Positions 5,713 through 62,629 of a DNA stretch of 64,000 nt are shown one piece after another (the stretch's first letter is position 1; every line of letters begins with the position of its first letter). The stretch comes from Negaprion brevirostris. Lineage: Eukaryota. The notes under the pieces were generated by a model. It was not told the origin of the DNA. It worked only from the letters and a program-made list of their open reading frames with translations, and searched no databases. The DNA is taken from assembly GCA_030324005.1 (NCBI GenBank), contig JARDVH010000137.1, positions 24,296,202-24,360,201 of the forward strand, given 5' to 3'. Both the position numbers and the translations under genes were made by a program.

Positions 5713-5785
5713 CTGACAAAGTGTTCCGAAACCTTGTGGTTTCAAATAAATCTGTTGGACTATAACCTGGTGTCATGTGAGCTCT
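5711..5785 (+). mobile_element. PLE terminal-repeat remnant
   Basis: cctgac..ccgaaac..caaataaatctgttggactataacctggtgt is homologous to 57514-57586 and 62451-62527. Confidence 0.6.
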
Positions 5786-54716: not shown

Positions 54717-54885
54717 GCATAAACAGTTTTATTACTATGGTTAATTAATTTTTTCTTATGAAAACCATGAAAATATGGTTCAATCTGAATTTCTGCTTGT
54801 TCATGGCAGGAAATATATAAAACAAAACAGAAATTGCACATTGGAGTGCAATTCTCCATGGATTGCACTAAATATTTCACCAATT

Positions 54886-55232
54886 TAAGAACATAAGAAC
54901 ATAAGAAATAGGAGCAGGAGTAGGCCATCTAGCCCCTCGAGCCTGCCCCGCCATTCAATNNNNNNNNNNNNNNNNNNNNNNNNNNNNNNNNNNNNNNNNN
55001 NNNNNNNNNNNNNNNNNNNNNNNNNNNNNNNNNNNNNNNNNNNNNNNNNNNNNNNNNNNCCTCGCTATTTCCTCCTTGATGACGGATTCTAACATTTTAC
55101 CTACAACAGACGTTAAACTAACTGGCCTATAATTCCTTGCCTTTTGCCTGCCACCCTTCTTAAACAACGGCGTAACATTGGCCATTTTCCAATCTTCCGG
55201 CACTTCCCTGGAATTCAGCGACGTTTGGAAAA
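54886..55232 (-). mobile_element. Young CR1 LINE, mostly hidden in a 100-N gap
   Basis: Tail aagaacataagaacataagaaataggagcagg on the left; PEDWKMANVTPLFKKGGRQKARNYRPVSLTSVVGKMLESVIKEEI on the right. Confidence 0.9.
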
Positions 55233-57018: not shown

Positions 57019-57358
57019 TCATGGAGAGTTTCCTCAGGCTTGTTCCCAATCCTTTGCTTTTGCTTTGCTGGCATGCATTTGATGGGCTGAATGGCATCTT
57101 TCTGCATTGCAATGACTCCACATGCAGCAGGAACCTCACTCATGCAAATATATTAGAGTTCTCAATTCTGGTTAGATTTATATTCCAGGAGATCTTCCAT
57201 GAAAGAAAGTATGTGTAGATACTTATTGGAGTTATTGGATTACTGCTTGCTGTCTTGGGGCTATAACGGAGCTCAGGTATCAGCGGATTCTCAAGCGTTT
57301 TCCAGCCAGTGAGGTACTTCTAGAAGTGTAGTCACTGTTATAATGTGGGAAATCATGA

Positions 57359-57586
57359 TATGGAGATGCCAGCGTTGGACTGGGGTAAACACAATAAGAA
57401 GATTTCTTACGTTCTTATGTTCTTAAGTCTCACAACACCAGGTTAAAGTCCAACAGGTTTATTTGCTAGTAAACACACAAGCTTTCGGGGTTTGCCCCTT
57501 CATCAGGTGAGCATCACCCCGAAAGCTACTGGATTTACTATCAAATAAACTGGTTGGGCTTTAACCTGGTGTTCTGAGACTTCTTA
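57359..57586. mobile_element. Inverted pair of PLE terminal repeats inserted in a DeuSINE-like element
   Basis: 57425-57490 is the approximate reverse complement of 57517-57582; both match 62451-62527. Confidence 0.75.
57476..57510 (-). ncRNA. Minimal type I hammerhead ribozyme motif (PLE-associated), intact core
   Basis: Minus strand reads UCAC-CUGAUGA-A-GGGG-CAAA-CCCC-GAAA-GC-UU-GUG: stem I CAC/GUG, CUGAUGA and GAAA cores, 4-bp stem II, palindromic AAGCUU at stem III, CUU cleavage triplet. Confidence 0.7.
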
Positions 57587-58597
57587 TTGTAAAGCAGTAA
57601 GTTTGGGCACAGCAAAATCCCACAAACAGCAATNNNNNNNNNNNNNNNNNNNNNNNNNNNNNNNNNNNNNNNNNNNNNNNNNNNNNNNNNNNNNNNNNNN
57701 NNNNNNNNNNNNNNNNNNNNNNNNNNNNNNNNNTGTTGGCTCTATTCTCTCCCCACAGATGCTGTCAATCCTGCTGAGATTTTCCAGCATCTTCTGTTTT
57801 TGTTGCTTCAGATTCCAGCATCCGCAGTCTTCTGCTTTTATCTGTCTGCCACCTATTCTGACAGTGTAGCAAGGATGTGGAATCTAGCACAATTCAAGCT
57901 ACGGACATTCTGGCAATAAGCATTCTACAGCCCAGAAAACCAAGCCACTTTGACACATATTATCTCATTTAAACTCTACAATGTGCTCAATATCATATTG
58001 GTAGTGTGTCTGCAGCCGGTTAACTCACCGTATCACAAGCTTTAAATTGATATTACAGTTCCTGACTGCTTGCTGCAAAACACTTGTTTTATCATAAATT
58101 GATAACTTTTATAAATATCACTATTCTGATCTTGAAGTCCTAGAAAATTGTAGAACAAAATGCCTTGAGGATGCCCGAACACTGAGTCAATTGAACAGGT
58201 ACATTTACAGTGCTTATTTGCTGGCTCAAAGCTTTCATCCTTTGCCATAAAGTCCAATAAAGTATCAGTGATTCCTCTGACTGCATACCAGACTGGTGCC
58301 ATCTTACCCTAATGCTTAGAAGGACAGGCACGTGTACTGGCCAACATGTTGAAATACCAATGGTAGAGTATAGCAGATAGTGATAGCTTTATCCTAAAGT
58401 CTAATGACATATTTCAGTTGGCAGATATAAAGCTTTGGACAGTTGGTCTTTGAACCCAATGACTACCTAGGCAATGGTTGGGCAGGCAGTTTCCTATTAA
58501 AGGGTAAGTTACTGCCTTTATTGGGTTCCTCTTTCATTCATATCTAATATAATAGTGGTTGCTGGCTCTCTGATCTCTCTATGAGTTGTTCCCTTGA

Positions 58598-61949: not shown

Positions 61950-62527
61950 GCATGCCTTGGGACAGTACACTGGGGAGACCATGCAGATGCTACGACAATG
62001 GATGAATGAACACCGCTCGACAATCACCAGGCAAGACTTCTTGTTGCAGAACACTTCAGCGGTCATGGGCATTTGGCCTCTGATCTTCGGTAAGTGTTCT
62101 CCAAGGCAGCCATCACCACACACGACAGCGCAGAGTCGCTGAGCAGAGACTGATAGCCAAGTTCCGCACACATGATCTTGGGTTCATGTCACATTACCTG
62201 TAACCCGCATAATGATTTGCCTGGGCTTGCAAAATCGCACTAACTGTCCTGTCTGGAGACAATACACATCTCTTTAACCTGTGCTGAAAGCTCTCTCCNN
62301 NNNNNNNNNNNNNNNNNNNNNNNNNNNNNNNNNNNNNNNNNNNNNNNNNNNNNNNNNNNNNNNNNNNNNNNNNNNNNNNNNNNNNNNNNNNNNNNNNNNN
62401 NNNNNNNNNNNNNNNNNNNNNNNNNNNNNNNNNNNNNNNNNNNNNNNNNNAGTGCTCTGAAAGCTAGTGACTTTTGCTACCAAATAAACCTGTTGGACAT
62501 TAACCTGGTGTTGTGAGACTTCTTACT
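61950..62527 (+). mobile_element. Penelope-like element 3' end: GIY-YIG endonuclease remnant plus terminal repeat
   Basis: QYTGETMQMLRQWMNEHRSTITRQ (YIGET..LR.RM.EH), then RVAEQRLIAKFRTH and DLGFMSHY; terminal repeat with gaaagctagtga at 62460-62470. Confidence 0.8.
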
Positions 62528-62629
62528 GGTGAGTCTAGAACCAGGGGACACAGTCCCAGAACATGGCTCAGGCCATTTGGAACTGAGATGATGAGGAGTT
62601 TCTTCACTCAAAGGATCTTTGTAATTCTC

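What the first reader, a model, noticed from the sequence alone, without database searches (positions are those of the whole stretch)
57476..57510. Intact minimal hammerhead ribozyme in a Penelope terminal repeat
Seen (- strand RNA): UCAC CUGAUGA A GGGG CAAA CCCC GAAA GC UU GUG, with all core nucleotides, a GC stem II, a 3-bp stem I and a self-complementary AAGCUU in place of a stable stem III. Established: PLEs carry minimal type I hammerheads with palindromic stem III that are thought to cleave as dimers. The GIY-YIG-linked copy at 62451-62470 shows the same 3' half (GAAAGCUA-GUGA). Inference: a potentially catalytic RNA family dispersed through this shark genome; predicted cleavage 3' of 57479.
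Basis: partly seen in the sequence, partly recalled or inferred. Interest (0 to 1): 0.7.

Follow-up and report, generated by a model that had tools for sequence, protein, structure and literature searches.

The report
Trapped Penelope-transposon hammerhead stub
This is a real copy of the small self-cutting RNA motif already known from Penelope-type jumping genes, here in a short broken stub that is predicted to fold into a long hairpin and so is likely silent; the only fresh clue is that many such stubs in this genome, this one included, start just in front of the motif, which likely marks where the element's RNA begins.

Summary
The motif is real, exactly as read: complete core, 4-bp stem II, 3-bp stem I, palindromic AAGCUU, predicted cut 3' of 57479. 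It lies in the pLTR of a Penelope-like retroelement with a Neptune/Nematis-type linker (RT, CX4CxxC, GIY-YIG), a known kind (PMC4209133). The family is large (5,322 pattern matches, control 0) and stem II covaries. 'Intact' does not mean active. This copy is one arm of a fold-back stub, and in context its stems have predicted probability 0.0. It has no tandem partner and carries U17, a lineage trait (26 of 31; 39 of 47). Most sampled copies are decayed (7 of 47 pass strict criteria). I found no pile-up of copy starts at the cut site. Starts instead pile up about 6 nt before the core (48-fold over a same-sequence control) and are usually preceded by G. This fits copying of an uncut, capped RNA 5' end (inferred). 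The scan noted this kind 446 times before, on other DNA; the start-site idea came from those notes and I re-tested it here.

The parts
57473..57512 (-). Minimal type I hammerhead motif: stem I 5' strand 57512-57507, core 57506-57500, bulged A 57499, stem II 57498-57487, GAAA 57486-57483, GCU 57482-57480, U17 57479, stem I 3' strand 57478-57473; predicted cut between 57479 and 57478
   Evidence: Sequence; bare motif folds with stems at P 0.96-1.0
57353..57511 (-). Long arm of the insertion: pLTR stub that starts 5 nt before C3 (preceded by G at 57512) and runs through the hammerhead, the family tag and the full 3' tail
   Evidence: Start at -5; 3' end at position 95 of reference copy L057, the long mode; 96.6% identical to the nearest fetched copy
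57516..57590 (+). Short inverted arm: 3' half of a hammerhead (stem II 3' strand, GAAA, GCU, A17, decayed stem I strand) plus tag, without tail
   Evidence: Inverted repeat I1, 67 nt, 87%; ends at position 57 of the reference, the short mode; 93.3% to the nearest fetched copy
57402..57427 (.). 26-bp later insertion in the long arm: a short simple-repeat stub, with a 3-bp duplication
   Evidence: Gap in the alignment to L057; 25 bp match at 96% to window 54885-54909
57323..57352 (+). Left part of an older dispersed repeat that the insertion interrupts
   Evidence: 4 other loci with the same 25-mer run on into sequence like the right flank, clearest in L216
57591..57633 (+). Right part of the interrupted host repeat; no clear target-site duplication
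   Evidence: Comparison with the empty-site relatives
61950..62298 (+). Second copy: frameshifted GIY-YIG end and 3' UTR of the same element family
   Evidence: 80% DNA identity to L036; BLASTP E 4e-16 to L061; translations
62451..62529 (+). Second copy: 3' half of the hammerhead (A17) plus tag; 5' half in the gap 62299-62450
5715..5781 (+). Third, decayed pLTR fragment (G8 changed, stem II partly deleted)

Best explanation
The motif is a genuine minimal hammerhead sequence in the end repeat of a Penelope-like retroelement, and this copy is a decayed fold-back stub that is predicted to be locked in a long hairpin and likely does not cut. Shown: the family links RT, a CX4CxxC linker, a GIY-YIG end, 3' UTR, hammerhead, tag and tail; its lineages keep stem II by compensatory changes; this locus is two head-to-head stubs, one with the tail and one without. 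Inferred from published work on other PLEs: in the active element the motif would cut only weakly, as a dimer through the AGCU palindrome and/or with help from the element's protein. Inferred from junction counts here: the element's RNA likely starts at the first base of stem I; reverse transcription starts internally at one of two sites about 60 and 95 nt past the cut site and copies uncut RNA to its 5' end, which gives short stubs; priming on both target strands would give the inverted pair seen here. After insertion the copies decay without selection.
For: Element identity: L245 holds RT (RVT_1, 30.9 bits, cut-off 29.6), CX4CxxC linker, weak GIY-YIG (E 7.6e-4, below cut-off), then motif and tail; L036/L061 link this exact stem-II variant to the linker and GIY-YIG end. 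Structure: 56 motifs, 84.6% of cells paired vs 78.1% shuffled, 64 double changes vs 20.5, 0 of 500 shuffles; stem II pairs 2-4 swap G-C and A-U (9, 25, 19 cells). Silence of this copy: stem II P 0.98-1.0 alone, 0.0 with 76, 201 or 434 nt of context; 150-nt hairpin at -84.2 kcal/mol, z -11.75. Decay: 7 of 47 strictly intact, commonest changes G8A and G12A at CpG sites. Two 3' ends: 52 of 86 at 52-62 and 23 of 86 at 87-99, as expected from two RT start sites (PMC11167929, parts 1-2 of the text) and a tail at one end only (PMC8557442, passages). Start hot spot: 507 vs 15,068 read-through copies, against 5 vs 7,121 at a control ACTCAC site about 110 nt upstream, 48-fold; G before the start in 75 of 100 listed rows by eye, 22 of 30 by script vs 16 and 15 of 30 at the two positions before (Fisher p 0.04).
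Against: Nothing was assayed. Folding is an equilibrium prediction; a transcript that began at 57512, without the inverted arm, would form stem II (P 0.95) though stem I only weakly (0.14), and this arm does begin at the putative start. U17 is allowed by the NUH rule (PMC11014351, passage; PMC3138052, passages), and CUU was used with effect in a trans ribozyme screen (PMC6908138, passage); that U17 is the slowest H is recalled, and I found no paper to cite in 3 searches. Stem I shows little covariation. No tandem full-length element was recovered, so the hammerhead at the 5' end of an ORF-bearing RNA was not seen directly; no shared sequence follows the tail in 122 copies. The extra G also precedes starts at -8 (72 of 100 by eye), so terminal addition by the RT fits as well as a cap. 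The two arms differ by 13% and at position 17, so they may come from two templates.
Confidence: 0.8

Rival explanations
1. This copy is an active or activatable ribozyme: a transcript starting at its own 5' end folds the motif and cleaves as a trans dimer with one of the thousands of related copies.
For: Core complete; bare motif folds correctly; 6-bp intermolecular duplex through AAGCUU at -6.5 kcal/mol; published min-HHR dimers show low activity (PMC4209133, parts 1-2 of the text).
Against: Upstream pLTR is truncated here; read-through RNA on either strand forms the hairpin; the 6-bp duplex would pair A14 with U17, which should stay unpaired in the core (recalled); stem I has a private mismatch; the published monomer showed no cleavage (PMC4209133).
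Confidence: 0.12
2. The start hot spot at the 5' base of stem I is mechanical, not a transcription start: the cDNA end pairs with its own copy of the other stem I strand or with the second arm, and the RT adds a C.
For: Stem I strands are complementary over 6 bp in the main lineages; many listed junctions show microhomology with an antisense arm; an antisense arm lies within 300 nt upstream in 36 of 90 tag loci (36 of 58 after dropping gapped loci without a hit); G enrichment is not confined to -6.
Against: The same ACTCAC hexamer upstream is not a hot spot; stalling at the structure should give starts at the 3' side of stem I, which are not enriched; PLE promoters and start sites lie in the pLTR (PMC2377424, passages; PMC6765202, section 11 part 2).
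Confidence: 0.35
3. In the U17 lineages the motif is kept as a fold or promoter element rather than as a nuclease.
For: U17 in 39 of 47 tag-selected copies and 26 of 31 of this variant; no cut-site pile-up; ribozyme mutants did not affect insertion in vitro in the anole element (PMC11167929, part 2 of the text).
Against: Master lineages keep every core position and the AGCU palindrome, which fits selection for catalysis; A17 lineages also lack a cut-site pile-up here, so its absence does not single out U17.
Confidence: 0.2
4. A chance match or a domesticated host ribozyme.
For: The core pattern alone is near chance in the window.
Against: High-copy family with covariation; the copy is about 3.4% from its nearest fetched relative, sits inside another repeat and carries a later insertion; no sign of locus-specific constraint was found.
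Confidence: 0.02

Closest known systems
Minimal hammerheads (min-HHR) in pLTRs of metazoan Penelope-like elements, including fish Xena, Poseidon and Neptune (Cervera and De la Pena 2014, PMC4209133; parts 1-2 of 4 of the text read, 2 supplementary files searched, 1 not searchable)
   Same: Type I, no stem III, palindromic 15.2-16.2, extra base between A9 and G10.1, G10.1-C11.1 pair, many variable families, mostly single truncated copies, some pairs on opposite strands
   Different: Stem II is 4-5 bp here rather than 7-8 bp as in Schistosoma; large lineages carry U17 (triplet CUU); the parts read name no shark, nor do the two supplementary files searched
Complex EN+ PLE insertions with an inverted 5'-truncated copy and a 30-40-bp tail at one end (Craig et al. 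2021, PMC8557442; passages)
   Same: Head-to-head arms, tail on one arm only, CX2-5CxxC linker of Neptune/Nematis, two cysteines before the YIG motif
   Different: Here both arms are stubs under 160 bp with no ORF between them
Poseidon of Anolis carolinensis, PAc (Frangieh et al. 2024, PMC11167929; parts 1-2 of 4 of the text)
   Same: Two 3' end modes that bracket a tail; uncut RNA appears to be the insertion substrate; no ends at the cut site
   Different: PAc is Poseidon clade and its ORF starts inside the hammerhead; here the linker is Neptune/Nematis-type and the tail often ends at an ATG; activity untested here
Non-LTR retrozymes (bioRxiv 10.64898/2026.07.22.740005; part 1 of 5 and passages)
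   Same: Type I hammerhead, PLE-derived, reported in the one chondrichthyan sampled
   Different: Retrozymes are tandem units with at least two motifs; this locus is an inverted pair with one full motif

Membership tests
min-HHR of metazoan PLEs | Core C3-A9 and G12-A15.1, U16.1, H17 | tested here: met
   H17 = U
min-HHR of metazoan PLEs | Stem II with G10.1-C11.1 and an extra base after A9, covarying across families | tested here: met
   (bulge A in 45 of 47)
min-HHR of metazoan PLEs | Short stem I | tested here: met
   3 contiguous pairs here; up to 6 in the lineage; little covariation
min-HHR of metazoan PLEs | No stem III; palindromic 15.2-16.2 | tested here: met
   AGCU, extended to AAGCUU by U17
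min-HHR of metazoan PLEs | Located in the pLTR of an RT + GIY-YIG element | tested here: met
min-HHR of metazoan PLEs | Self-cleavage as a dimer or with protein | not testable with these tools
   Needs an assay; in context the fold is predicted not to form
Neptune/Nematis EN+ PLE | CX2-5CxxC linker between RT and C-terminal GIY-YIG | tested here: met
   CX4CxxC in L061, L233-L235, L240-L245; definition from PMC8557442 passages
Neptune/Nematis EN+ PLE | RT phylogeny separating Neptune from Nematis | not tested
Non-LTR retrozyme | At least two tandem units, each with a complete hammerhead | tested here: not met
   One full motif, inverted partial partner
Rfam hammerhead families | Match to a covariance model | tested here: not met
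   No hammerhead among 9 hits at E up to 10

The most novel reading that the evidence does not exclude
The genomic stubs record that this Penelope RNA starts at the first base of hammerhead stem I, so the ribozyme is placed to cut off the capped first 34 nt of its own transcript, a decapping switch between message and template; insertion uses the uncut form, and a lineage with thousands of copies succeeded with the cut tuned down by U17.
Probability: 0.3. Interest if true: 0.55.

Novelty: new member of a known kind. Interest (0 to 1): 0.22.

Why it matters
The locus itself matters little: it is one decayed stub of a described kind. What PLE hammerheads do in vivo is still open (PMC4209133, PMC11167929). 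The junction counts give a cheap prediction: a transcription start at the first base of stem I, uncut RNA as template, and natural U17 and A17 lineages to compare in one assay.

Tried and rejected
(1) Cut-site footprint: 333 copies of the tag group begin in the 10 positions around the cut. By-eye run lengths of the 100 listed rows were 32, 14, 33 and 14 for groups of 3, 2, 3 and 2 positions, with 7 deletion or variant rows dropped; chi-square p 0.28 against flat; a script on 30 of them was also flat. For a mainly A17 group (295 matches) the 100 listed rows by eye gave 3 starts at the cut, 17 one base before (14 with the templated A), 9, 9 and 7 further up, and 10 one base after; the other 45 rows start further down or are deletions. 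No spike at the cut; an excess of a few percent is not excluded. (2) U17 as private CpG decay: rejected, it is the lineage state. (3) Tandem copies at G000:C1:26224808 and 26224960: they flank an assembly gap, so probably an artefact. (4) Expression: no RNA holder listed. (5) Orthologous site: no listed contig of runs X7-X10 bridged the unique central junction; (X7, X9, X1, X2) showed flank contigs ending at 57352; no verdict. (6) Full-length tandem element: the 'long open frames' were N gaps. (7) Pfam gave no hit on L061, L243 or, in substance, L244. (8) One search used a mis-registered stem II and is superseded. (9) Lunse et al. 2016 (dimer cleavage) is not held; known only through the review PMC6765202. 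(10) Searches for a shark PLE hammerhead paper (1 irrelevant hit) and for a cap-derived G at PLE junctions (0; 7 listed, none on this by title or abstract start) found nothing, but most subscription journals are not searched. (11) No clear target-site duplication.

Full report
Observation. Stem I has three contiguous pairs, a U.U mismatch, and two more pairs. The bare core pattern is near chance in the window (11 vs mean 6.92) and Rfam has no hammerhead hit. The motif is real because of its family: 5,322 genome matches with 0 for the reversed control and 162 exact copies of this stem-II variant.

Anatomy. The motif is one arm of an inverted repeat (57425-57491 and 57516-57582, 87%). The long arm (57511-57353, minus) runs from 5 nt before C3 through a conserved tag to the end of a tail. 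The short arm (57516-57590, plus) holds only the 3' half of a hammerhead, with A17, and has no tail. The pair interrupts an older repeat without a clear target-site duplication. A 26-bp simple-repeat stub later landed in the long arm. Among tag-selected loci an antisense arm lies within 300 nt upstream in 36 of 90, or 36 of 58 after dropping gapped loci without a hit, so this layout is common. Inverted 5'-truncated copies and a tail at one end are described for PLEs (PMC8557442, passages).

Element. L036/L061 join this exact variant to a CX4CxxC linker and a GIY-YIG end. L245 has RT (RVT_1 above cut-off), linker, a weak GIY-YIG match, the motif and the tail in order. By the definition in PMC8557442 the linker is of Neptune/Nematis type; no tree was built. 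The window's second copy (61950-62529) is of this family, but its 5' half is in a gap and it has A17.

Structure across lineages. In 56 motifs (the window's plus 55 of the 64 parsed; I left out 8 from the pattern-selected set and one with a deletion), 84.6% of cells pair against 78.1% shuffled, with 64 double changes against 20.5, 0 of 500 shuffles, and the true register beats all slides. The signal is in stem II pairs 2-4 (G-C and A-U swaps). Caveats: 17 rows came from a pattern that fixed pairs 1-2, and related copies count many times. Stem I varies mostly on one side.

Decay. I sampled 90 loci by a tag downstream of the motif (7,706 genome matches), so the sample is not selected for the core. 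22 had a gap, 21 lacked the full span and 47 parsed as full span, 4 of which are by eye junctions inside the core. Seven of 47 pass strict criteria (full core, four stem II pairs, three stem I pairs). G8A and G12A occur 10 times each, both at CpG sites; position 7 is C in 32 of 47. Selection therefore acted on the master lineages, not on the inserted copies (inference). The focal copy passes the same criteria.

Is this copy active? Probably not. Alone, its stems form with probability 0.96-1.0; with 76, 201 or 434 nt of context both are 0.0, because the inverted arm pairs across the core (hairpin -84.2 kcal/mol). If RNA began at 57512, stem II would form (0.95) but stem I barely (0.14). No other full motif with the tag was found in the window. 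Position 17 is U in 26 of 31 copies of this variant and 39 of 47 in the tag sample, so it is a lineage trait. U is allowed by the NUH rule (PMC11014351, PMC3138052, PMC6908138, passages); most natural viroid-type hammerheads have GUC (PMC1636495, passages). That U17 is slowest and could pair with A14 in the AAGCUU duplex is recalled or inferred. Published min-HHRs do not cleave as monomers and cleave weakly as dimers (PMC4209133); the anole motif needs the element's protein (PMC11167929).

Where copies start and end. 3' ends are bimodal: 52 of 86 at 52-62 and 23 of 86 at 87-99 on reference L057 (4 gapped loci dropped). The two arms here end one in each mode, in line with the two internal RT start sites reported for PAc. 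I first tested whether 5' starts pile up at the cut. They do not, in either group (by-eye tallies of 100 listed rows each, details under Tried and rejected). This differs from earlier notes on other genomes (e1-9207248, e1-9162017), whose data I did not see. Prompted by notes e1-8159453 and e1-8024068, I then tested for starts in front of the motif. In 90 ungapped copies, 18 start 4-6 nt before C3, this one included, and 12 of the 18 are preceded by G (G count by eye). Genome-wide, starts at -6 with three purines before them number 507 against 15,068 read-through copies; at the same ACTCAC hexamer about 110 nt upstream the figures are 5 against 7,121, a 48-fold difference; starts at -8 number 149. 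G precedes the start in 75 of 100 rows at -6 and 72 of 100 at -8 (by eye), and in 22 of 30 by script against 16 and 15 of 30 at the two positions before. The -6 A fits an initiator consensus (recalled), but so does the control site.

Mechanism. Most likely the pLTR promoter starts RNA at the first base of stem I; the RT starts internally about 60 or 95 nt past the cut site, copies uncut RNA to its 5' end, and adds a C from the cap or by terminal transfer; priming on both target strands gives inverted stub pairs. All steps here are inferred from junction statistics and from other PLEs (PMC2377424 passages, PMC6765202 section 11 part 2, PMC11167929). The mechanical rival, pairing of the cDNA end through the complementary stem I strands, is not excluded.

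Verdict. This copy is likely silent. One supplementary file of PMC4209133 and the supplements of the 2026 preprint could not be seen and may list shark motifs. Interest 0.22.

Noticed in passing
window 57402-57427 and 54885-54960: A 26-bp simple-repeat stub with a 3-bp duplication sits inside the long arm; the same repeat begins a longer element at 54885 (its likeness to a LINE 3' end is recalled, not tested).
   Followed up: partly
window 57516-57590 vs 57425-57491: The two arms differ by 13% and at position 17 (A vs U), so they may have been copied from two different element RNAs.
   Followed up: partly
122 tail-bearing copies among fetched loci: The tail most often ends in ATCATG (28 of 122), an ATG with A at -3; nothing shared follows it. 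It may mark the ORF start of the next unit.
   Followed up: partly
L172, and rows: Some copies have lost the whole core by deletion between short direct matches, joining the two stem I strands.
   Followed up: no
L237 (G000:C73:64093000-64100500): A U17-lineage locus with three motifs, two head-to-head and one about 5.9 kb away on the same strand across a 4.5-kb gap; a candidate full-length element for long reads.
   Followed up: no
window 5715-5781: Third pLTR fragment with a decayed hammerhead.
   Followed up: partly
window and fetched loci: Assembly gaps fall very often in or beside these repeats (22 of 90 loci within 45 nt), so counts are lower bounds and long copies are under-sampled.
   Followed up: yes
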